From assembly GCA_029257865.1 (NCBI GenBank), contig JARIAN010000103.1:9776-73775 (forward strand): 64,000 bases of DNA, given 5' to 3'. Positions 1 to 8,370 of the stretch are shown here, one piece after another (position 1 is the first letter of the stretch; every line of letters begins with the position of its first letter). The DNA comes from Phocaeicola sp. (lineage in GTDB: Bacteria; Bacteroidota; Bacteroidia; Bacteroidales; Bacteroidaceae). The position numbers and the translations under genes are program-made. A model generated the notes under the pieces. It had not been told where the DNA came from. It worked only from the letters and a program-made list of their open reading frames with translations, and ran no database searches.

Positions 1-1227
1 TAATACAAAAGCGGGATGTGACATAGTACCTTCACAAAAGGTAACATCTCCATTTGGCATTATAAATGCTTGCCACAAATTTCCGGTACACAAAGATCTA
101 TTAGCAAAATATTTATCTTTTTGCGATGCAGTTCCTTCAATACTGTCTTTCGGAATTGCATAAGGCATGGAAAGTGTATAATTATAATTATCCTTTACTT
201 TTTCTATATATTCTGTTATACTATTTATAGCTTCTTCTGAAGGCATATATTCCAAAGACTTATACATTGAAATACCAGCAGGTATTACAGTCACAGAATC
301 TACACTGAATTCAGAAAAGAAATCTAATAATTTACTTAATTCGTCAATAGAACAATTATAATGCGTAAATACAGAATTTATTTTTACACGAATACCATAT
401 TCCTTCAATAATAAAAGCGTTCGTCTCATATTCAAGAGATATTTCTCCCCATCAACTTTCAACAAACGACTAAGTACTTTCGGATTTATACTGTCCAGAG
501 AGATTTGTATCTTCTTTACTCCAACCTTATTTAATCGTCTTATTATATCCTCTGAAATAGGGATCTTTGTAGAAATAACAGGAAACAGATTAAGTTGATG
601 TAAACGAGATAGAATCATTTCCCAATTTTCATCCAAAAGGAACTCTCCCCCCATAATTGTAAAATCGAGAATAGGAGATTCTTCTATTTCATCCAGAAGT
701 TCCATAACCTTCGTTATAGGAAGTTGTCTTTTTTTTCTCATTCTACAATCAGCATAACAATATATACAATCTGTGTAGCAGACTGTATTTATCATATATG
801 TTATATAAATAGGAAAATTTAGCTTGGATGTTTTAAAATCTAGATTTTTGAAGGAAAAATCTGTAGAATTTATATTTTTATCTATTATACAATCATCACT
901 TTTACGCAGCAAAAGATTTTTAGGAAATAAAAACTGTGTATCTCCCCATTCTACTTTGTAAGATTTTTCATTCTCTGTAATTTTATTGATAAATTCAATA
1001 ATTTTCCTGCCGAATTTATTTCCCAAATAACTTCTAGATATTACTTCTTCTATTGTGTTTCCACCATTAAATAAGGCCAATAACTCTGCATAGTAAGGAT
1101 GGATAAAAGAAAAAAAACCTTTAGAATAGTTTCCTTCATTCTCATGACGTGCACACAACAAACTTCTTGTTTCATCATGCCGAATTAAATAATTCGGATT
1201 TAAATATAAAATTTCAGCTTCTGTCAT
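1..1227 (-). CDS. radical SAM peptide maturase with SPASM-like C-terminal extension (partial, C-terminus off the left edge)
   Basis: Absent from the ORF track because it runs off the window. Minus-strand ATG at 1227 (MTEAEILYLNPNYLIRHDE...) stays open for 409 codons to position 1. Contains CYTDCIYC (CX3CX2C, about 751-790) and a MGGEFLL (GGE-type) SAM motif. The N-terminal ~100 aa (FIHPYYAELLALFNGGNTIEEVISRSY...) resemble a PqqD-like RRE. The last residues CTGNLWQAFIMPNGDVTFCEG look like the start of a SPASM/twitch domain. Confidence 0.85.
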   Translation of the reverse strand, partial: MTEAEILYLNPNYLIRHDETRSLLCARHENEGNYSKGFFSFIHPYYAELLALFNGGNTIEEVISRSYLGNKFGRKIIEFINKITENEKSYKVEWGDTQFLFPKNLLLRKSDDCIIDKNINSTDFSFKNLDFKTSKLNFPIYITYMINTVCYTDCIYCYADCRMRKKRQLPITKVMELLDEIEESPILDFTIMGGEFLLDENWEMILSRLHQLNLFPVISTKIPISEDIIRRLNKVGVKKIQISLDSINPKVLSRLLKVDGEKYLLNMRRTLLLLKEYGIRVKINSVFTHYNCSIDELSKLLDFFSEFSVDSVTVIPAGISMYKSLEYMPSEEAINSITEYIEKVKDNYNYTLSMPYAIPKDSIEGTASQKDKYFANRSLCTGNLWQAFIMPNGDVTFCEGTMSHPAFVL

Positions 1228-1264
1228 AATTATCAAATTTATCAAGATCAATACCGTAGGAAAT

Positions 1265-1300
1265 AAAGCTGATCTGAGTTTTGTCACTCAGAACAGCTTT
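1265..1300 (-). terminator. hairpin between precursor gene and maturase gene (possible partial terminator or attenuator)
   Basis: Minus strand reads AAAGCTGTTCTGAGT-GACAAA-ACTCAGATCAGCTTT, with 14 of 15 stem pairs, followed by ATTTCC. It lies 34 nt after the precursor stop and 38 nt before the rSAM ATG. Confidence 0.5.
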
Positions 1301-1333
1301 AATTAATTTCTTCTAGAGTTTATTCTCTAAGAA

Positions 1334-1534
1334 TTAAGGTTGTAGCTTTTCATTCTCCTCTATACTAACAGCTTTTAGACCTCCCCAAAAACATGCTGCT
1401 ACACACCCAAGCCCGCAAACACCCCCATCAACTTCTTCCATTTCATTGAGTTTTAAAAGATCCTCATCTTTTACCTGTTCAGCTACTTTTTCAATTATTT
1501 GCTGCTTCAGTTCATTTCCGTTGTTCTCTTTCAT
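1334..1534 (-). CDS. RiPP precursor peptide with double-glycine leader and Cys-rich core
   Basis: 66 aa: MKENNGNELKQQIIEKVAEQVKDEDLLKLNEMEEVDGG / VCGLGCVAACFWGGLKAVSIEENEKLQP. The acidic leader has hydrophobic residues at -4 (V), -7 (M) and -12 (L) relative to the GG. The core has 3 Cys and a second GG. It sits directly upstream of the rSAM gene and downstream of a C39 ABC exporter. Confidence 0.8.
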   Translation of the reverse strand: MKENNGNELKQQIIEKVAEQVKDEDLLKLNEMEEVDGGVCGLGCVAACFWGGLKAVSIEENEKLQP

Positions 1535-1939
1535 AACACTTCTTGATTAAAAATTAAACAAATATTGACAATTAACTCACAAATATCAAAATAACATTTT
1601 ATACAATCCAGTAAAAATAAACCTATGACTTATATTGTTACCATCATAAAGTAAAGGTGGTACAAGCTATTACTAAACATTTTATGTTTGGACACACCCA
1701 TCATATACAATCACTATAAAACGAATCAGTTTTAAAGGATATATAGCATATTATCTATTTCTCTATAACAAATGTAAGCACAGCCAATCCGCTAAAAGGA
1801 GTTTCGAAATATTTTTTTTCGAAAATCTATCATTTTTACAAGCAAGTTCAAAAAACGAATCGAACAACGTGTCCTTATTCTCATATACGTCTTTAATTCG
1901 TAAACATTCTTCAGTTTTATGAACTTTCAGGAATCATTA

Positions 1940-3078
1940 TTATAAAAGTCTAAATATCGGTCCGAATATTCTACTCAATATACTACGGCTAGAGGTGATT
2001 ATTTCCGCCTGGCCTACTAATCCGACTTCATAGTCAACTTCGTATTTCGAAGTTGTATGCATGCCTTTAGGCAACTCCACCTCCACAGCATAGTTTTTGC
2101 TCGATGGTACATATGTTACTGAGCTTATTTCTCCTACCAGATAACCATACGTATGCGATGGATACTTCGATAACTCAATGTTTACCTTATCGCCTACTGC
2201 AATGTCTGCAATCTGATGCTGCGTCAGTTTATATGTCCCTTGGGATGACCTTTATATTCCGACACCACCGAACAGATTGTATCACCTACCGATACACGAT
2301 TGTTTATACTCCAGCCCGTCCCCAATAGGACTATTCCATCGTTGGCACTCTTTATCAGATACCTGTTTTCCCACGATTTCAGACTGTTTACCATCCTTTC
2401 GTATGCAAGTTCAAGCAATCTCTTATTTTGGGCTGTCTCCAGTTTATGCTCCAGAGCCATTTCAAACAGGTTCCTTTTTACATTCAGGACTGCAAGCTCA
2501 TTCTTCACCGAGTCCTTCAATAGTATTTTTATTTCTTGTTCCAGATAGTTTCTTCTCTGATTATATGCATTATACTCGCTGGCAAATACATTGGCGCGTA
2601 CAGCTTCTGTGAATTGCTCGTATGAGGAAGACATCTCTCCCATTATCAAGTCAAATGGATAGTTATCCAGATACGAAGGATCATCCGTCCTGTAGAACCA
2701 TTCTACCCGCGTCAATACTTTACAGAATTTTTTCACATCCTCAAGCGATGCTGTATTACGTATTATGCCAAGAGTGTCATTCCTCTTTACCCTTGCTCCA
2801 TCGGGCACAAAGAATTCACCTATTATCCCATCCTCGTTGGCTGTTATCCATTCAGTCTTCGAATAGTCGTCTATGGTTATGCCTGTCTCTACGACATCAG
2901 GATACTTGAATATATAACTGCCAGCCAGCAGCACTGCTATCAGGCTATACACTATATAGCTGCCTGTATGTATCAGCCAGTTTGGCATATCACCGAGCAT
3001 ATCACTCGAACTCTCTCTCGAATATAGCTCTATGTTCTCACCCGCAGGTTGCTTCTTTTCATCAGTTTCTTCTTTCAT
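1940..3078 (-). pseudogene. HlyD-family secretion adaptor, interrupted by a single-base frameshift
   Basis: The 284-aa ORF (3078..2224) ends ...SVVSEYKGHPKGHIN*. The shifted frame continues KLTQHQIADIAVGDKVNIELSKYPSHTYGYLVGEISSV...GLVGQAEIITSSRSILSRIFGPIFRLL* down to 1940, which is the expected HlyD C-terminal part. The minus strand reads CAT ATA AAC TGA; one extra A (ATA AAA CTG ACG) would restore a ~380-aa protein. Confidence 0.85.
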
Positions 3079-3084
3079 ATTGAT

Positions 3085-5283
3085 TTACGCATTAAGTTCC
3101 AACTGATTCTTTACCAGCCTATAGTAGTCTCCTTGTCTTGAAATCAGTGATTCATTATTTCCTCTCTCGGTTATTACCCCGTCTTTCAGTACTACTATCT
3201 GGTCAGCATTTCTCACCGTACTAAGGCGGTGCGCTACTACGACCACTGTCTTGTCCTCAAAGAACTGGTTCAGATTCTCCTGTATTGCTTTTTCATTATC
3301 AGTGTCCAAGGCATTTGTAGCTTCATCAAAGAACAGGTAATCCGGATCTCTGTATATTGCCCTGGCAATCAGAATACGTTGCTTCTGGCCTTGGCTTAAG
3401 CCTTGCCCTGTACTTCCGATTCTGGTGTTATATCTCAAAGGGAGCGATTCTATGAAATCTTTTATATTTGCCATCTTTACCGCATACAATAGTCTTTCCC
3501 GGTCAATAACATCTGCATCCGGTGCTATATTATTGGCAATGGTATCGCTGAATATGAATCCTTCCTGCATTACCACTCCACAGTGTTTGCGCCATTCTTT
3601 GAAACTGATTCTTTGTAGCGGCATCTCACCGACCATTACACTTCCCTCCGTAGGTGGATAGAATCCCAACATCAGTTTTATCAGAGTCGTCTTTCCACTA
3701 CCGCTCAGTCCTACTATTGCCGTTGTTTTTCCTGCTGGGATATCCAGATTAATACCCTTTATTATGCGCTTCGACTTCTCCGATCCATAGGTGAACTGCA
3801 GTCCTCTCAATGAGATGGAATCTTTTCCTGAGACTTGATTCACTGTTTCCATCGAGTCAGACTCTTCATTCTCCTTCCCGTGTATCTCTCCAAGCCTTTC
3901 AAGGCTCAGCGTTGCATCCTGCGACTGTTGCATGAAATATACAAACTGTTCTACAGGTCCCTGCATCTGACCGATAATGTATTGTATGGAGAGCATAATA
4001 CCAAGTGTTATATCTCCATTCAATACAGCTGTAGCAGACATTACGGTTATCAGTATATTCTTTACTTCGTTAATCAGTACAGCACCGACCTGCTGCCATT
4101 GCCCGAGATTCAGCGAACGAAGGTTTATTCTAAACAACGAAGCCTGTATATTCTCCCATTCCCATCGTTTCTGCCGTTCACACCCAAGCAGTTTTATATC
4201 CTGCATTCCATACACAAGTTGCATCAGATTATCCTGATTCAGAGCCATTTGCTCAAAGTTTTTTCTGTTAAGGTCTGCACGTTTCTTCATGAACAGTTTT
4301 ACCCATCCTATATAGAATACGCTGAATGCCAGGAATACAAGGAATATTTTCCAGCTGTATATGGCCAGCACAATACCGAAAATGGTTATAGTCAGAACAG
4401 AGAACAAGATATTCAATACCGATTGTGTCAGAAAAGCTTCTATGGTTCTATGATCTTCTATACGCCTTATCAGGTCACCGGCAAGCTTACTGTCGAAGAA
4501 ACGCATCGGAAGTTTCATCAGTTTTACGAGAAAATCCGATATCAGAGCCACATTGACTCTTGTACTTATATGTAGCAGTATGCATCGCCTTATTACCTCT
4601 ATCAGTGTCCTGCTGAATACAAGTATCAGCTGTGCTACCAATATTAACTGTATGAAGTTCATATTCCTGTGCCCGATACCCTGATCGACTATAGTCTGTG
4701 TCAGAAATGGGAATATAAGCTGCAGGATACTGCCTCCAAGTATACCAAGGAACAGTTGCACTATCATTTTCTTGTATGGCCGCACATAGCGTAGCAGATA
4801 CCATAGCGACATCTTTTCATACCTTATCGGCTCTGTTTCATAGAACTGCGGAGTAGTTTCAACCAGCATTGCAATGCCTTTTTCTACACCTCCTTGGCGT
4901 GTGCTTATCCAGCATTTTTTCAGTTCTTCTTCCTCATACTTCAGCAGACCATAGGCCGGATCGGCTATGTGGAAATATGTTTTCCCTTTCGACTTCTCTA
5001 CCCTGTATAGTACTACAAAGTGCATTTGGTTCCAATGCAGAATACATGGCAGCTTAGACTGCTGCTTCAGTTTATCTATAGTTGTGCGTATACCGGTTGT
5101 ACGCAATCCTATGCTCTCTGCTGCTTCACTTATTCCCAGCAGATTTACTCCAGTACGCTGTATATAGGAATTCTCGCGAAGCTGTTGCACGGAAAATTTC
5201 TTTCCGTAATATCTCGCTATCATGCGTAGACAGGTAGGACCACAGTCCATACCGTCAAGCTGTCTGTAGAATGGAAATTTCAT
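3085..5283 (-). CDS. bacteriocin/peptide-cleaving ABC exporter with N-terminal C39 peptidase domain
   Basis: MKFPFYRQLDGMDCGPTCLRMIARYYGK is a C39 catalytic Cys context. It is followed by six-TM ABC membrane domains, Walker A GLSGSGKTT, signature LSQGQKQR and Walker B LFFDEATNALD. The start was moved from the track ATG (5367) to the ATG at 5283, which gives the canonical C39 N-terminus. Confidence 0.93.
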   Translation of the reverse strand: MKFPFYRQLDGMDCGPTCLRMIARYYGKKFSVQQLRENSYIQRTGVNLLGISEAAESIGLRTTGIRTTIDKLKQQSKLPCILHWNQMHFVVLYRVEKSKGKTYFHIADPAYGLLKYEEEELKKCWISTRQGGVEKGIAMLVETTPQFYETEPIRYEKMSLWYLLRYVRPYKKMIVQLFLGILGGSILQLIFPFLTQTIVDQGIGHRNMNFIQLILVAQLILVFSRTLIEVIRRCILLHISTRVNVALISDFLVKLMKLPMRFFDSKLAGDLIRRIEDHRTIEAFLTQSVLNILFSVLTITIFGIVLAIYSWKIFLVFLAFSVFYIGWVKLFMKKRADLNRKNFEQMALNQDNLMQLVYGMQDIKLLGCERQKRWEWENIQASLFRINLRSLNLGQWQQVGAVLINEVKNILITVMSATAVLNGDITLGIMLSIQYIIGQMQGPVEQFVYFMQQSQDATLSLERLGEIHGKENEESDSMETVNQVSGKDSISLRGLQFTYGSEKSKRIIKGINLDIPAGKTTAIVGLSGSGKTTLIKLMLGFYPPTEGSVMVGEMPLQRISFKEWRKHCGVVMQEGFIFSDTIANNIAPDADVIDRERLLYAVKMANIKDFIESLPLRYNTRIGSTGQGLSQGQKQRILIARAIYRDPDYLFFDEATNALDTDNEKAIQENLNQFFEDKTVVVVAHRLSTVRNADQIVVLKDGVITERGNNESLISRQGDYYRLVKNQLELNA

Positions 5284-5394
5284 ATCTCTTATTATTTTAT
5301 ACAAATATCCATTCTTCCAATCCGCTCGCAGGATTTTCTGCACAAAAAAAGCATGATAATTATTCAATTATCACGCTTTTCTAGTCCTCGTACA

Positions 5395-5649
5395 CTATTT
5401 CTTATGAAATAATGTAGTTTCCAACACTGAGAATAAGTCTTCTCCGTCATAATAATAAGTTTGCCTGTATTTATCATACGAGATATCCACTTTCAGGTCA
5501 CATCTGAAATAGTTAAGATATTTGCCCAACTGCGATTTGGACAATCCTACCTTTTCAGCAAACTCTTCTGGTGTGCCGGTGCCCTGTCTGTATATCTGAT
5601 TATGAATGGCACAGAGCTTTTCAAATGATATCACTCTCATGACATTCAT
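5395..5649 (-). CDS. small HTH (HTH_11/DeoR-N-like) regulator
   Basis: 84 aa. GTGTPEEFAEKVGLSKSQLGKYLNYFR matches the helix-turn-helix pattern of HTH_11-type domains. Its ATG overlaps the stop of the upstream gene (ATGA at 5646-5649). Confidence 0.6.
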   Translation of the reverse strand: MNVMRVISFEKLCAIHNQIYRQGTGTPEEFAEKVGLSKSQLGKYLNYFRCDLKVDISYDKYRQTYYYDGEDLFSVLETTLFHKK

Positions 5650-6020
5650 TTTTTAAATTGACTCCATACCCTATCATTAGGATTGGGACTGGTTAATATT
5701 ATAGTATAGATCCCATTATCAGGCAAATCTGAAACTGAAATTGTAATCTGTGCAGAATTCTCTTTAGAAACTACACCACTTTTAAGAATATTATAAAATT
5801 TATCTACAACTTTATAATAAATTAATTTATCAGGATTCCTATTATAAATAATTATTTCGTTTCCTATATATTCGGAGTAAAATGGAATTTCATTAGTAAC
5901 ACTGAAAGATACAGTTCCATCTTTCCAATTACCATTCCAAAAAAAATCTGATAAACACTCAGTAGCAAATACATCTATAGATGTAAAACCAAAAAATAAA
6001 GCTAATATAAAATTTCTCAT
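5646..6020 (-). CDS. small secreted protein of unknown function
   Basis: 124 aa with an N-terminal signal peptide (MRNFILALFFGFTSIDVFA). The mature part looks beta-rich. It is the first gene after a TAACTTTG box and is translationally coupled to the HTH gene. Confidence 0.6.
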   Translation of the reverse strand: MRNFILALFFGFTSIDVFATECLSDFFWNGNWKDGTVSFSVTNEIPFYSEYIGNEIIIYNRNPDKLIYYKVVDKFYNILKSGVVSKENSAQITISVSDLPDNGIYTIILTSPNPNDRVWSQFKK

Positions 6021-6043
6021 AATGGTTATAATTTATTCTGTCG

Positions 6044-6051
6044 CAAAGTTA
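6044..6051 (-). promoter_or_regulatory. Bacteroides-type -7 box (TAACTTTG) for the secreted-protein/HTH/exporter operon
   Basis: Minus strand reads TAACTTTG, an exact match to the TAnnTTTG consensus, 23 nt upstream of the ATG at 6020. Confidence 0.45.
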
Positions 6052-6090
6052 TTAACAATCATTAAAAAAGAACATATATACAATCGGATA

Positions 6091-6178
6091 CTATATAGAC
6101 AATGAAATTACGCCTATCACCCACACACCAATGATTATCAATGTTTTACAATTAATTTTCTTTTAGCTATATAGACAA
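6091..6178. repeat. two identical 12-mers CTATATAGACAA, each containing the palindrome CTATATAG, upstream of the operon promoter
   Basis: Exact copies at 6091-6102 and 6167-6178, with starts 76 nt apart. They lie between the TPR/LuxR gene end (6188) and the -7 box at 6044-6051. Confidence 0.6.
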
Positions 6179-6187
6179 ATTAAAACA

Positions 6188-8008
6188 TCAGTATTCCCAG
6201 ATCCAAACATCAAAACTTTTATCAACTAGGTTTTGCCCCAATTCACCACAAATTTTATTTTTTATTCGGAGTTTACTCCTAGATACAGAAGTTGAAGCTA
6301 TATTAAAAAAGGTAGATATTTCAATTATGGAAAATCGCAATTTAATTAAACAGCAAAGCAAGATTTCATGTTCACTTAAAGTTGGTATCTCATGTAATAA
6401 TCGAAAACTAAAATTCTGAAATACATTATCTGCTACTTCACGAATTTCTTTTAATTGTGATTCATTTAAATATACAGGCTTTGAATGAAGGTTACGCAAT
6501 ACAGGAGTTTGTTTTAATATTTGTAAGCACAATTCTTTTTCCCTTTTTTCCAATAAACTAATTTTATCTGACAACATTTTAACATTTGTTACTTCTATAG
6601 AAGAAATTGAATATGAAGTCATCTTTTCATATAAAAGTTTCTTTTCTACACATAATTGCTCATTTTCTTTTTTTAGATTAAATAACAATTCCTCTTTTTC
6701 TTTAAGAATGCCTTGAGTATTATTCTCTATTTCTATTTGTGATTGTAGTTCTAAAATATATGATTCATTTTTATCAACCTCCAGCTCTTTTTCATGTAAT
6801 TGCAATGCCAACTTAGTCAAATTCTCTTCTTTTTCGTGTATTACAATTCTTTTATGTAAAAGTGTATAAATAAAAACAAACACGAACAATAATAAAAAAA
6901 TAATTGTCAATAACCACCAACAGGTTACATTTGATTTTTCCAATTCCAGCTTTTGTTTCTCCGTAATTAATTTCTCATTATTATATTTTTCTTTATAGGC
7001 TATAATCTCTTTCCCTTTATCAAGGGAAAGAATAGTATCATTATAAAATAATAATGAATCACTATATACCCTCATGTATTTTTGATACTTCGGGGAATTA
7101 GTAAGTTGATACATTGTTTTATAAACAGAACGTTTTGTATATATATTATCTGTCATTAATGCTTTATTAAGATAATTGAAAGCTGTATCAAACTTATTTA
7201 AAGACAAATAAATTTGTCCCTTCAATAAATTAATTTGTGAGGAAGGTTGGAAATTCTTTACTATTTCAAGAGATTTATGATATCTTTTATCTGCAATATA
7301 CACCAATGCTAATTCTTGCCGTACAATATCATAAAAATTATTATTCTTTAACTTTAAAGCTAATTCTGAACTCTGTTCATACAATTGTTCTGCTCGGTTT
7401 AGATTATTCAGCAAACAATAACACCTAGCCAAATATTGTAATGAAATCATTTGATAACGCACATTCCTATCTTTAATAGCATAATCATAAGCTTGTTGAC
7501 AAGCATCTAATGAATATGCTGCAAGATCTCGATATAAATAAATTCTTCCCAATCCAGACATAATCAAATAACCAAGCTTGTAATCATTTGTTTTCTCCAT
7601 CTCGGTCTTGGCCTCCAAATAATATTTGATAGACTCTTCAACATTTCCAAGGTTATAATTAACCCCACCCATATATAAAGCCGACATGGCTTTACATCGA
7701 GCGTTATCAGTTGACATGTAATAATGGTAAGCAAGATGTATTAACGAATCTGATTTAAATTTTACCATTTGCTTATATTTCGCCTGCGTCACCAACAGAC
7801 ACCACAGCGCATGGTTCTCCTTATCAGTTCTTGACGAAGGCTTCTCCATACTTTCCAATATATGCAATGCACTGTCTGGATGGTCGAACATCACCTTTTC
7901 AGCTTTTACAAGTTCTGGTATTTGCTTGTCTACTTGACCACTTCTGCTACATCCTGAAATAATCAAAAAGAAACTAATTGTTATATATATACATATAGAT
8001 TGTTTCAT
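6188..8008 (-). CDS. membrane-anchored TPR-repeat protein with C-terminal LuxR/GerE-type HTH
   Basis: The start was placed at MKQSICIYITISFFLIISGCS (lipobox ISGC). About 350 aa of TPR-like repeats follow, then a TM helix (WWLLTIIFLLLFVFVFIYTLL) and a coiled-coil stretch. The C-terminal LSEHEILLCCLIKLRFSIIEISTFFNIASTSVSRSKLRIKNKI matches the GerE/LuxR HTH pattern. Confidence 0.8.
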   Translation of the reverse strand: MKQSICIYITISFFLIISGCSRSGQVDKQIPELVKAEKVMFDHPDSALHILESMEKPSSRTDKENHALWCLLVTQAKYKQMVKFKSDSLIHLAYHYYMSTDNARCKAMSALYMGGVNYNLGNVEESIKYYLEAKTEMEKTNDYKLGYLIMSGLGRIYLYRDLAAYSLDACQQAYDYAIKDRNVRYQMISLQYLARCYCLLNNLNRAEQLYEQSSELALKLKNNNFYDIVRQELALVYIADKRYHKSLEIVKNFQPSSQINLLKGQIYLSLNKFDTAFNYLNKALMTDNIYTKRSVYKTMYQLTNSPKYQKYMRVYSDSLLFYNDTILSLDKGKEIIAYKEKYNNEKLITEKQKLELEKSNVTCWWLLTIIFLLLFVFVFIYTLLHKRIVIHEKEENLTKLALQLHEKELEVDKNESYILELQSQIEIENNTQGILKEKEELLFNLKKENEQLCVEKKLLYEKMTSYSISSIEVTNVKMLSDKISLLEKREKELCLQILKQTPVLRNLHSKPVYLNESQLKEIREVADNVFQNFSFRLLHEIPTLSEHEILLCCLIKLRFSIIEISTFFNIASTSVSRSKLRIKNKICGELGQNLVDKSFDVWIWEY

Positions 8009-8370
8009 AATATCGTTTATTTTTTGCAAAATTATAAAAAGAAACAATATTTCCTATACTTACAATACAATTATTACTGCATTACTTCCGAATAAATACA
8101 CTTAGTTATCCAGTTGAATTTAGGGCTTTCCCCAAAGATCCTATCAGATGTTAAAAAATGAAAACAGACCATCTGATACTCGCTCGTTTATGTACAGGTA
8201 TCCGAGCGTTGCCAAAGAAAGGATTCTCACGGCTCCATTTTTCGCTATCATCCTATATATCAAACCAATAAACCATATTTTATATTCTTTCATTTTCATC
8301 CAAAGAGCGCATAATCCGGGCAAAAAACACCCCTTCTCCTCCCGTATTTTGAAACCTTCGGAGCATACCG

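What the first reader, a model, noticed from the sequence alone, without database searches (positions are those of the whole stretch)
1334..1534. Precursor with two GG motifs bracketing a 14-residue Cys-rich segment and an acidic follower
Seen: the leader MKENNGNELKQQIIEKVAEQVKDEDLLKLNEMEEVDGG has V, M and L at -4, -7 and -12, the classic double-glycine leader spacing. The sequence VCGLGCVAACFWGG follows and ends in a second GG. After that comes LKAVSIEENEKLQP, which is charged and unlike a typical mature bacteriocin tail.

Inference: the mature product may be the 14-mer excised at both GG sites, or the C-terminal part may act as a follower or recognition sequence for the rSAM enzyme. The CxxxCxxxC spacing (C2, C6, C10 of the core) suggests three regularly spaced crosslink donors.
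Basis: partly seen in the sequence, partly recalled or inferred. Interest (0 to 1): 0.75.

Follow-up and report, generated by a model that had tools for sequence, protein, structure and literature searches.

The report
Bacteroides radical-SAM peptide precursor, single cleavage
The 66-residue ORF is a real precursor of a ribosomally made, radical-SAM-modified secreted peptide from an uncharacterised but widespread Bacteroidota family; its three evenly spaced cysteines are conserved, but the second Gly-Gly is peculiar to this allele and is not a second cleavage site.

Summary
The ORF (1334..1534, minus strand) reads exactly as described. It sits in a cluster: TPR regulator, DUF3244, HTH, C39-peptidase ABC exporter, HlyD adaptor, precursor, rSAM/SPASM maturase. 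The window resembles Bacteroides caecigallinarum.

About 35 homologous precursors all lie directly upstream of homologous maturases. Three things are conserved:
- the leader LxLxE[LMI]Exx[ED]GG;
- a core of x-C-x3-C-x3-C followed by two hydrophobic residues;
- a hairpin plus U-tract between precursor and maturase (16 of 16 loci).

The second GG occurs only in this allele; elsewhere it is GN, SD, SQ, SG and others. The tail varies from 2 to 23 residues, is often acidic, is absent in one complete gene, and evolves faster (pN/pS 0.52 against 0.12–0.17).

So excision at both GGs and a follower-recognition role are not supported. The conserved Cys spacing is supported.

The maturase model shows an RRE-like N-terminal domain plus rSAM and SPASM domains. 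Its nearest structures are SuiB, CteB and SkfB. It fits no curated family.

Most likely the leader guides thioether cross-linking of the cysteines, followed by one cut after G38 during export. The chemistry is inferred, not shown. This is a new member of a known kind, of moderate interest.

The parts
1334..1534 (-). Precursor gene, 66 codons plus TAA stop
   Evidence: ORF list and translation. Homologues lie directly upstream of homologous rSAM genes. pN/pS is 0.15-0.21.
1421..1534 (-). Leader, residues 1-38, ending LKLNEMEEVDGG. This is the double-glycine signal and the presumed RRE-binding segment.
   Evidence: L27, E31, E33, G37 and G38 are invariant in a 17-sequence alignment. The -12..-1 segment is conserved in all 22 entries. 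Sub-threshold Pfam Bacteriocin_IIc and TIGR03949 hits cover residues 27-53. pN/pS is 0.12.
1379..1420 (-). Conserved core block VCGLGCVAACFWGG (residues 39-52): C-x3-C-x3-C plus two hydrophobic residues plus a small or turn-forming pair
   Evidence: Cys spacing and the hydrophobic pair are conserved. The GG at its end is found only in this allele. pN/pS is 0.17.
1337..1378 (-). Variable hydrophilic C-terminal tail LKAVSIEENEKLQP (residues 53-66)
   Evidence: Tail length is 2-23 residues across the family, and the tail is absent in P0126. pN/pS is 0.52. LKA[VI][SD] is kept only in the nearest clade.
1264..1301 (-). Stem-loop followed by a U-rich tract between the precursor stop and the rSAM start; a likely leaky terminator or attenuator
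   Evidence: MFE -28.1 kcal/mol, z -4.3, 0 of 200 shuffles fold as well. An analogous hairpin plus U-tract with unrelated sequence is present in 16 of 16 related loci.
1..1227 (-). rSAM/SPASM maturase, first 409 of about 486 residues; cut by the window edge, not a pseudogene
   Evidence: The frame is intact from the ATG at 1227. CYTDCIYC motif is present. The full-length 97% homologue P0005 has PF04055 and PF13186. The AF2 model has pLDDT 90 with an RRE-like N-terminal domain. The nearest structures are SuiB, CteB and SkfB.
1940..3078 (-). HlyD-type membrane-fusion adaptor, split by a 1-nt deletion in an A-run near 2230 into a 284-aa ORF (2224..3078) and a tail ORF (1940..2086)
   Evidence: ORF list. 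Weak TIGR01843 hit. Alignment to the intact 379-aa gene of L001 shows one gap column.
3085..5367 (-). PCAT: C39 peptidase, ABC transmembrane and ATPase domains. Homologues are called from the ATG 28 codons downstream, giving 732 aa.
   Evidence: Pfam C39 1.2e-31, ABC_membrane 8.7e-33, ABC_tran 1.6e-30. TIGR03796 and TIGR01193 hits are below cut-off. The QxxxxDCGxxC and HFVV...ADP catalytic motifs are visible in the translation.
5395..5649 (-). 84-aa HTH protein
   Evidence: Weak HTH_3 hit. Conserved in 9 related loci.
5646..6020 (-). Secreted DUF3244 protein, 124 aa
   Evidence: Pfam DUF3244 E 2.3e-4. The same position is occupied in L001-L005, L088, L092 and L094.
6188..8047 (-). TPR protein (BT3442-like). 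It appears to have a lipoprotein signal, TPR repeats, one TM segment and a C-terminal LuxR-like HTH; a putative one-component regulator.
   Evidence: TPR_12 8.3e-10. NF053779 1.9e-29, below cut-off. The domain reading beyond TPR is my inspection of the translation.

Best explanation
The ORF encodes the structural precursor of a RiPP belonging to an uncharacterised family that is widespread in Bacteroidota.

Proposed pathway:
1. The 38-residue leader, with its conserved LxLxE[LM]ExxxGG helix, is held by the RRE-like N-terminal domain of the rSAM/SPASM enzyme encoded 106 nt downstream.
2. The enzyme modifies the conserved x-C-x3-C-x3-C-hydrophobic-hydrophobic block. Most probably it converts the three cysteine thiols into thioether (sactionine- or ranthionine-type) cross-links.
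3. The C39 domain of the PCAT then cuts once, after G38. The peptide is exported with the HlyD adaptor and, in intact clusters, an outer-membrane beta-barrel protein encoded just beyond the window.

The second GG is an allele-specific version of a small or turn-forming dipeptide that follows the cysteine block. It is not a processing site. The acidic tail is a fast-evolving, dispensable C-terminal extension, either kept in the product or trimmed by an unknown protease.

A stem-loop plus U-tract after the precursor gene probably lets precursor transcripts outnumber enzyme transcripts.

What is shown: gene identity, neighbourhood, conservation pattern, and maturase domain architecture. What is inferred: thioether chemistry, order of steps, fate of the tail, and bioactivity.
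For: - The ORF and its neighbours are as described.
- The same gene order, PCAT-HlyD-precursor-rSAM-OMP, occurs in near-identical contigs.
- Across 90 related loci, a PCAT is present in 49 and the OMP in 38, usually right after the rSAM.
- Every harvested relative of the maturase has a GG-leader, Cys-rich small ORF directly upstream.
- The closest subfamily conserves the leader and CxxxCxxxC but not the second GG or the tail.
- The exhaustive profile search found only small precursors of this type. These include a complete gene whose core is ACALGCTPGCFLFGTY, with no tail.
- Purifying selection is strongest on the leader and Cys block.
- The maturase has the CxxxCxxC motif plus seven invariant SPASM cysteines.
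- The AF2 model (pLDDT 90) shows a three-strand, three-helix N-terminal domain. Full-length structural matches are SuiB (TM about 0.6), CteB, SkfB and PqqE, all leader-guided peptide-modifying rSAM enzymes.
- CX3CX3C is the donor pattern of thuricin CD Trn-alpha and Trn-beta (PMC3132745).
- Short 14-mer sactipeptides with local rings exist, for example streptosactin (PMC8172795).
- The hairpin after the precursor gene is present in 16 of 16 loci.
Against: - No chemistry is shown. The best structural neighbour, SuiB, makes a C-C (Lys-Trp) bond, not a thioether.
- The maturase scores far below the cut-off of every curated sactisynthase or ranthisynthase model.
- No acceptor residue is conserved, so nested (thuricin-like) and local (streptosactin- or freyrasin-like) topologies cannot be told apart.
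- LKA[VI][SD] after the turn is conserved in the nearest clade, so the tail may matter there.
- In this window the HlyD gene carries a frameshift. Export may be defective in this strain, or the frameshift may be a sequencing error.
Confidence: 0.6

Rival explanations
1. One reading: the C39 peptidase cuts at both GG motifs and releases the cross-linked 14-mer VCGLGCVAACFWGG. The acidic tail is discarded.
For: The block conserved across the family coincides almost exactly with this 14-mer. The tail is variable and dispensable. 14-mer sactipeptides are known (PMC8172795).
Against: The second GG is present only in the window allele and its 97% twin. The 76%-identical allele in B. caecigallinarum An428a, which has a 98%-identical maturase, has GN, and other relatives have SD, SQ, SG and others. 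The residues upstream of the second GG lack the -4/-7/-12 hydrophobic helix and the -8 Glu of the true leader. A cross-linked segment could not adopt the helix that C39 domains bind (established knowledge of PCAT substrates).
Confidence: 0.07
2. The acidic tail is a follower or recognition sequence that recruits the rSAM enzyme, or it supplies the cross-link acceptors in a thuricin-CD-like nested hairpin with GG as the turn.
For: LKA[VI][SD] is conserved in the nearest clade. A turn-forming dipeptide always follows C-hydrophobic-hydrophobic. With i, i+4, i+8 donors, C10, C6 and C2 could reach about residues 17/18, 21/22 and 25/26, as C13, C9 and C5 reach 21, 25 and 28 in thuricin CD. Acidic acceptors are used by PapB- and QhpD-type enzymes.
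Against: Tail length is 2-23 residues and its composition is unrelated between clades. P0126 has only six residues after the last Cys. The tail has the weakest constraint. The leader is conserved and the enzyme has an RRE-like domain. The acceptor version may still hold for this clade; the recognition version is unlikely.
Confidence: 0.2
3. The maturase performs a non-thioether reaction on the Cys block. Examples are a C-C or C-O cross-link, Cys oxidation as in anSME, epimerisation, or a new Cys-based linkage within each CxxxC unit.
For: The nearest structure is SuiB, which makes a C-C bond, and anSME is also among the matches. No curated thioether-synthase family is matched. The unit CxxxC behaves as a repeat module: 1, 2, 3 or more copies occur, and there is a CRIA duplication in P0144.
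Against: Cysteine is the only residue type conserved in the cores across the whole enzyme family. Characterised rSAM/SPASM enzymes acting on Cys-rich RiPP cores make thioethers.
Confidence: 0.25
4. It is an unmodified class II bacteriocin or pheromone with a GG leader. The adjacent rSAM gene acts on something else.
For: Weak Pfam Bacteriocin_IIc and TIGR03949 hits.
Against: Those hits are below threshold and cover mainly the leader. Precursor-rSAM adjacency holds in all loci with diverse sequences, with a conserved hairpin between the genes. Three cysteines cannot all pair as disulfides.
Confidence: 0.04

Closest known systems
Thuricin CD (Trn-alpha/Trn-beta with the rSAM enzymes TrnC/TrnD), a type I sactipeptide
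   Same: It has an acidic, Cys-free leader ending in GG. Its cysteine donors are arranged CX3CX3C among small hydrophobic residues at the start of the core (PMC3132745). rSAM/SPASM genes are adjacent, and export is by an ABC transporter.
   Different: It comes from a Gram-positive host. Its 30-residue core is hydrophobic throughout, with acceptors at residues 21, 25 and 28. In the window family the sequence after the Cys block is hydrophilic, variable or absent. The maturase is only a remote relative: AlbA, SkfB and StsB models score 24-42 bits against cut-offs of 300-850. HlyD and OMP components are added.
SCIFF / ranthipeptides (CteA-CteB, Tte1186a-Tte1186, freyrasin PapA-PapB)
   Same: The cores are Cys-rich and lie next to an RRE-rSAM-SPASM enzyme. 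CteB is among the best sequence and structure matches. More distant members of the present enzyme family have CxxxC-repeat cores that resemble SCIFF (compared with my recollection of SCIFF sequences).
   Different: The PapB family model NF047865 appears only for the paralogous second maturase, at 38 bits against a cut-off of 340. No conserved Thr or Asp acceptor lies at a fixed offset. SCIFF clusters usually lack a PCAT.
Streptosactin (GggA/GggB), a type II sactipeptide
   Same: It is a small product of about 14 residues with local, unnested thioether rings (PMC8172795). This is a precedent for a compact product such as the tail-less ACALGCTPGCFLFGTY family member.
   Different: It is streptococcal and quorum-sensing regulated, has a different leader and protease, and shows no sequence relationship here.
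Bacteroidales rSAM-only RiPP clusters with PCAT, MFP, OMP and TPR genes ('BGC2', Phocaeicola vulgatus; PMC10352776)
   Same: The published architecture class is the same: a GG-motif precursor, rSAM, PCAT, membrane-fusion protein, outer-membrane protein and TPR protein in Bacteroidales. That work is purely bioinformatic.
   Different: Sequences are given only in a figure, so homology could not be checked. B. caecigallinarum is not in their genome list.
Streptide maturase SuiB
   Same: It is the best sequence and structure match, full-length, with RRE, rSAM core and SPASM domains.
   Different: It makes a Lys-Trp C-C bond. The window family conserves no Lys/Trp pair, and identity is only 16-17%.

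Membership tests
Double-glycine-leader peptides processed by PCAT (C39) exporters | GG at -2/-1 with hydrophobic residues at -4, -7 and -12 and Glu at -8 | tested here: met
   V-4, M-7, E-8 and L-12 are read. The same pattern occurs in all 22 relatives.
Double-glycine-leader peptides processed by PCAT (C39) exporters | A PCAT with a catalytically competent C39 domain is encoded nearby | tested here: met
   Peptidase_C39 E 1.2e-31. The Q-x4-D-C and H-F-V-V...A-D-P motifs are visible in the translation. A PCAT is present in 49 of 90 related loci.
Double-glycine-leader peptides processed by PCAT (C39) exporters | Cleavage after the GG | not testable with these tools
   This needs an in vitro C39 assay or MS of the secreted peptide.
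Class II unmodified bacteriocins (Pfam PF10439 Bacteriocin_IIc; TIGR03949 lactobin A/cerein 7B) | Score above the curated threshold of the family model | tested here: not met
   19.4 bits against 27.1, and 16.4 bits against 21.5. The matches cover residues 27-53, that is the leader end plus the Gly-rich start of the core.
Sactipeptides | An rSAM enzyme with SPASM/twitch auxiliary clusters and an RRE, encoded next to a Cys-containing precursor | tested here: met
   PF04055 and PF13186. Seven invariant C-terminal Cys. RRE-like fold in the AF2 model. Structural matches to SkfB and CteB.
Sactipeptides | The maturase belongs to a characterised sactisynthase family (AlbA NF012164, SkfB TIGR04403, StsB NF045574) | tested here: not met
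   Scores of 24-42 bits against cut-offs of 300-850.
Sactipeptides | Cys sulfur to alpha-carbon thioether bonds in the product | not testable with these tools
   This needs MS/MS and NMR of the modified peptide.
Sactipeptides, type I (nested hairpin, thuricin-CD-like) | N-terminal Cys donors and a C-terminal half long enough to supply one acceptor per donor | tested here: inconclusive
   The window core, with 18 residues after C10, could fit. The family member P0126 has only 6 residues after the last Cys.
Ranthipeptides / SCIFF | The maturase is in the PapB family (NF047865) or the CteB/SCIFF maturase family | tested here: not met
   Neither family is among the listed hits for the window enzyme or P0005. 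PapB scores 38 bits against 340, and only for the paralogous second maturase.
Ranthipeptides / SCIFF | A conserved acceptor (Thr, Asp or Glu) at a fixed offset from each Cys | tested here: not met
   No such column exists in the 17-sequence alignment or the 22-entry table.
Haft's Bacteroidetes/CXXX rSAM systems (GG-Bacteroidales TIGR04148-04150; CXXX-repeat TIGR04115; names from my own knowledge) | The precursor or maturase matches the family HMMs | tested here: not met
   The precursor hits only TIGR03949, at E 0.006. For eight enzymes of the family, none of these models appears among the listed hits. Caveat: only the best 25 families per protein are displayed.

The most novel reading that the evidence does not exclude
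The roughly 490-residue Bacteroidota rSAM/SPASM family, which no curated model claims, installs a previously undescribed cysteine-based modification within each minimal CxxxC-hydrophobic unit. The products would be very small, compact peptides of 14-16 residues. Their alleles are swapped between otherwise 95-99% identical strains, together with a hypervariable TPR sensor and DUF3244 protein. That would make it a strain-specific signalling or antagonism system of gut Bacteroides with its own outer-membrane channel.
Probability: 0.2. Interest if true: 0.7.

Novelty: new member of a known kind. Interest (0 to 1): 0.42.

Why it matters
Modified peptides (class I bacteriocins, RiPPs) from gut Bacteroidales are predicted but essentially uncharacterised (PMC10352776).

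This locus gives a clean, testable entry point into a family spread across Bacteroides, Segatella/Prevotella, Alistipes, Muribaculaceae, Marinilabiliaceae and others. It offers:
- a short precursor;
- a single maturase that models with high confidence;
- natural variants that already serve as mutagenesis data: two or three Cys, with or without a tail, GG or GN.

It also corrects a tempting misreading. A second GG in a Gly-rich core is not evidence of double processing.

Tried and rejected
- I first read the rSAM gene as frameshifted near 1105-1180. Re-reading the frame from the ATG at 1227 showed it is intact.
- Scans of eight family enzymes against NCBIfam found no family above cut-off. Filing under AlbA, SkfB, PapB, CefB, WgkB, the CXXX-repeat system or GG-Bacteroidales was therefore rejected.
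- Literature searches found no characterisation of this family. The terms were CXXX repeat, Bacteroidota rSAM RiPP, copri plus rSAM, and DUF3244. Haft & Basu 2011 is not held. The supplements of the Bacteroidales mining paper give no precursor sequences.
- The Bacteroides -7 promoter motif TAnnTTTG occurs at 1769..1776 (minus strand) upstream of the precursor. The motif is not enriched in the window (74 found against 61 expected), so I give it no weight. The sigma-70 and terminator scanner did not call the intergenic hairpin; folding did.
- I tested whether the TPR regulator co-varies with the precursor allele, as in a pherotype system. Co-variation is not strict: the window and L001 share the precursor allele but differ strongly in the regulator and DUF3244.
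- I did not fold the precursor with AlphaFold. The allowed alignment is too shallow to be informative about cross-links.

Full report
**Observation.** Counting back from G38 gives V-4, M-7, E-8 and L-12, the classic double-glycine leader pattern. Pfam Bacteriocin_IIc (19.4 bits, cut-off 27.1) and TIGR03949 (16.4 bits, cut-off 21.5) give sub-threshold hits over residues 27-53.

**Surroundings.** All genes below are on the minus strand, listed from upstream to downstream.
- 6188..8047: a TPR protein, BT3442-like.
- 5646..6020: a DUF3244 protein.
- 5395..5649: an 84-aa HTH protein.
- 3085..5367: a PCAT with Peptidase_C39 (1.2e-31), ABC_membrane and ABC_tran.
- 1940..3078: a HlyD-type adaptor.
- 1334..1534: the precursor.
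- 1..1227: an rSAM gene with CYTDCIYC that runs off the window start.

The rSAM frame is intact; my first impression of a frameshift was a reading error. The HlyD gene does carry a one-base deletion in an A-run near 2230, relative to the intact 379-aa gene in near-identical contigs.

The organism resembles Bacteroides caecigallinarum. The maturase is 98% identical to that of strain An428a.

Near-identical metagenomic contigs show what lies beyond the window edge:
- the rest of the 486-aa rSAM/SPASM gene;
- a 763-aa CarboxypepD_reg/OMP_b-brl_3 outer-membrane protein;
- a second small precursor, ...VQGG-VNSDDNHEHLEETCGLGCFNQGHVIIRKENGTK;
- a second rSAM/SPASM gene.

**Is it a gene?** Yes.
- Homologues of the 66-aa protein are rare. 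The word-index search found 4. An exhaustive profile search of 1.84 billion representatives found 10. A profile of 17 sequences found 23.
- Every one whose context could be read lies directly upstream of a homologue of the maturase.
- Between the window allele and the An428a allele, pN/pS is 0.21. By segment it is 0.12 for the leader, 0.17 for the Cys block and 0.52 for the tail.

**What is conserved.** In a 17-sequence alignment, L27, E31, E33, G37, G38 and C44 are invariant and C48 is nearly so. A table of 22 precursors shows the following.
- The leader segment is L-x-L-x-E-[LMI]-E-x-x-[ED]-G-G in all entries.
- CxxxCxxxC occurs in 17 entries, CxxxC in 4 and CxxCxxxC in 1.
- Two hydrophobic residues follow the last Cys (FW, LW, LL, LV, VL, FL or LN).
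- A small or polar pair comes next: GG, GN, SD, CD, SQ, SE, SK, SG, TG, GK, FG and others.
- GG at that position occurs only in the window allele and its 97% twin.
- The tail beyond it is 2-23 residues long. It is acidic in many, Gly-rich in some (L010, P0132), Pro-rich in others, and essentially absent in P0126. That core is ACALGCTPGCFLFGTY, from a complete gene 83 bp upstream of a 503-aa rSAM/SPASM gene.
- Further relatives confirm the pattern and include a unit duplication, CRIACRIACEKGC.
- Only the nearest clade keeps a short motif, LKA[VI][SD], after the turn.

The result is split: the Cys spacing is conserved and the second GG is not.
- A second C39 cut is also mechanistically unattractive. 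The residues preceding G51-G52 (F-4, A-7, G-12, no Glu at -8) do not resemble the leader. A cross-linked segment could not form the helix that C39 domains recognise (established knowledge of PCAT substrates).
- A second GG is not surprising in a core with 5 Gly in 28 residues. About 0.9 GG pairs are expected by chance.
- The follower-recognition idea fails because the tail is the least conserved part and can be missing, while the leader is conserved.

**The maturase.**
- Thirty family members share the CxxxCxxC motif and seven invariant C-terminal cysteines. They also share C-x12-G-x4-C and C-x2-C-x5-C-x6-C, a full SPASM complement.
- The AlphaFold model of the 97% homologue P0005 is confident (pLDDT 90.1, pTM 0.88). 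Residues about 6-83 form three strands followed by three helices, an RRE/PqqD-like arrangement, ahead of the rSAM barrel.
- Sequence and structure searches of the PDB rank SuiB first (E 4.7e-19; TM about 0.6 over the full length). SkfB, CteB, PqqE and anSME follow. The top four are leader-guided peptide modifiers.
- No NCBIfam model comes near its cut-off for eight enzymes spanning the family. The family is uncurated.
- Eighty GTDB loci carry relatives. Hosts include Bacteroides, Segatella copri, Prevotella, Alistipes, Muribaculaceae, Tannerellaceae, Marinilabiliaceae, Flavobacteriaceae and a few non-Bacteroidota MAGs.
- Their upstream small ORFs almost always have a GG (or GA/GS) leader and a Cys-rich core, often CxxxC repeats.
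- A PCAT is present in 49 of the 90 loci held and the OMP in 38, typically right after the rSAM.

**Mechanism proposed.** The leader binds the RRE. The rSAM/SPASM enzyme modifies the Cys block. The PCAT cuts once after G38 and exports the peptide with HlyD and an OMP.

Thioether formation is the most likely chemistry, for three reasons:
- cysteine is the only residue class conserved in the cores across the family;
- characterised rSAM/SPASM enzymes acting on Cys-rich cores make S-C bonds;
- CX3CX3C among small hydrophobic residues is exactly the donor pattern of thuricin CD (PMC3132745).

The topology is open. A nested hairpin with the GG (or GN, SD) pair as the turn is possible for the window peptide. 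Local rings, as in streptosactin or freyrasin (PMC8172795), are required for tail-less members. My estimates:
- about 0.55-0.6 that the chemistry is thioether;
- about 0.85-0.9 that there is no C39 cut at the second GG;
- above 0.9 that this is a genuine RiPP precursor.

**Regulatory detail.** The 106-nt spacer between the precursor stop and the rSAM start folds into a strong stem-loop at 1264..1301, followed by UUUAUUU. The spacer's MFE is -28.1 kcal/mol with z -4.3, and 0 of 200 shuffles fold as well. In 16 of 16 related loci the equivalent spacer, unrelated in sequence, also contains a strong hairpin followed by a U-tract. This is the arrangement expected for a leaky terminator that raises the precursor-to-enzyme transcript ratio. 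It is independent evidence that precursor and rSAM form one unit.

**Comparison with known systems.** It works like a GG-leader, PCAT-exported, rSAM-cross-linked peptide of the sactipeptide or ranthipeptide kind.
- It is not a member of any characterised or curated maturase family tested.
- The architecture class has been described bioinformatically for Bacteroidales: rSAM-only clusters with PCAT, MFP, OMP and TPR genes (BGC2 of Phocaeicola vulgatus, PMC10352776). Homology to that cluster could not be checked.
- I found no experimental work on this family.

**Verdict.** This is a new, uncurated member of a known kind of system. Interest is moderate: it is a good experimental entry into Bacteroidota RiPP chemistry, but the feature that made the finding look unusual, two GG motifs bracketing a 14-mer, is an allele-specific coincidence.

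Noticed in passing
window 2224..2235 (minus strand); L003 4674-5661: The HlyD adaptor gene is disrupted by a 1-nt deletion in an A-run (ATAAAAC to ATAAAC), relative to the intact 379-aa gene in L001, L002, L004 and L006. A different contig, L003, has a 282-aa version and lacks several hundred bp between HlyD and the precursor. This is either independent decay of the export adaptor or sequencing and assembly error.
   Followed up: partly
window 1229..1528 and 5722..7767, compared with L001 and L006: The cluster is a mosaic. PCAT, HlyD, HTH and rSAM are 94-99% identical at the nucleotide level between the window, L001 and B. caecigallinarum An428a (L006). The precursor gene plus its 3' spacer drops to 75-83% in L006. 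The TPR regulator and the N-terminal part of DUF3244 drop to 52-75% between all three. Regulator and precursor alleles do not co-vary strictly.
   Followed up: partly
L001 9630-13658 (beyond the window start); also L005, L088, L090, L091: Downstream of the first maturase lie a CarboxypepD_reg/OMP_b-brl_3 outer-membrane protein and a second precursor-maturase pair. The second precursors have an acidic spacer after the GG and then a single C-G-L-G-C-[YF] unit, for example VNSDDNHEHLEETCGLGCFNQGHVIIRKENGTK. The same CGLGC unit is the first CxxxC of the window peptide.
   Followed up: partly
L078 2695-2928, L083 6493-6711, L084 539-751 (Muribaculaceae MAGs): Distant members of the same maturase family sit next to precursors with three repeats of a different motif, C-x-C-x-S-G-A-G-Q (for example CLCESGAGQ...CTCTRGGAGQ...CVCPSGAQQ). 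This looks like a separate, also undescribed core class.
   Followed up: no
L012, L013, L015, L016, L019, L020, L023, L028, L042, L044, L053, L061: Many relatives, including Segatella copri and Alistipes, have Lys/Ser/Gly-rich CxxxC-repeat cores such as GGACGSGCKGGCPESCKQSSKNSKKKK. From memory these resemble SCIFF cores. None of their maturases reaches any NCBIfam cut-off.
   Followed up: partly
L005 13693-14595; L088 4603-5508; L092 3598-4497: A conserved protein of about 300 aa with no Pfam or NCBIfam hit sits between the HTH gene and the PCAT in several related clusters. It is absent from the window cluster.
   Followed up: no
P0144, P0003, P0004, P0146 (short metagenomic contigs): P0144 has a duplicated unit (CRIACRIACEKGC), giving four evenly spaced Cys. 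P0003, P0004 and P0146 are truncated or frameshifted versions of known alleles on contigs under 1 kb, probably assembly artefacts.
   Followed up: no
window 6188..8047 (minus strand): By eye, the TPR protein has a lipoprotein-type signal (LIISGC), TPR repeats, one hydrophobic segment (WWLLTIIFLLLFVFVFIYTLL), a coiled-coil stretch and a C-terminal LuxR-like helix-turn-helix. That suggests a membrane-spanning one-component sensor-regulator that could sense a periplasmic peptide.
   Followed up: no
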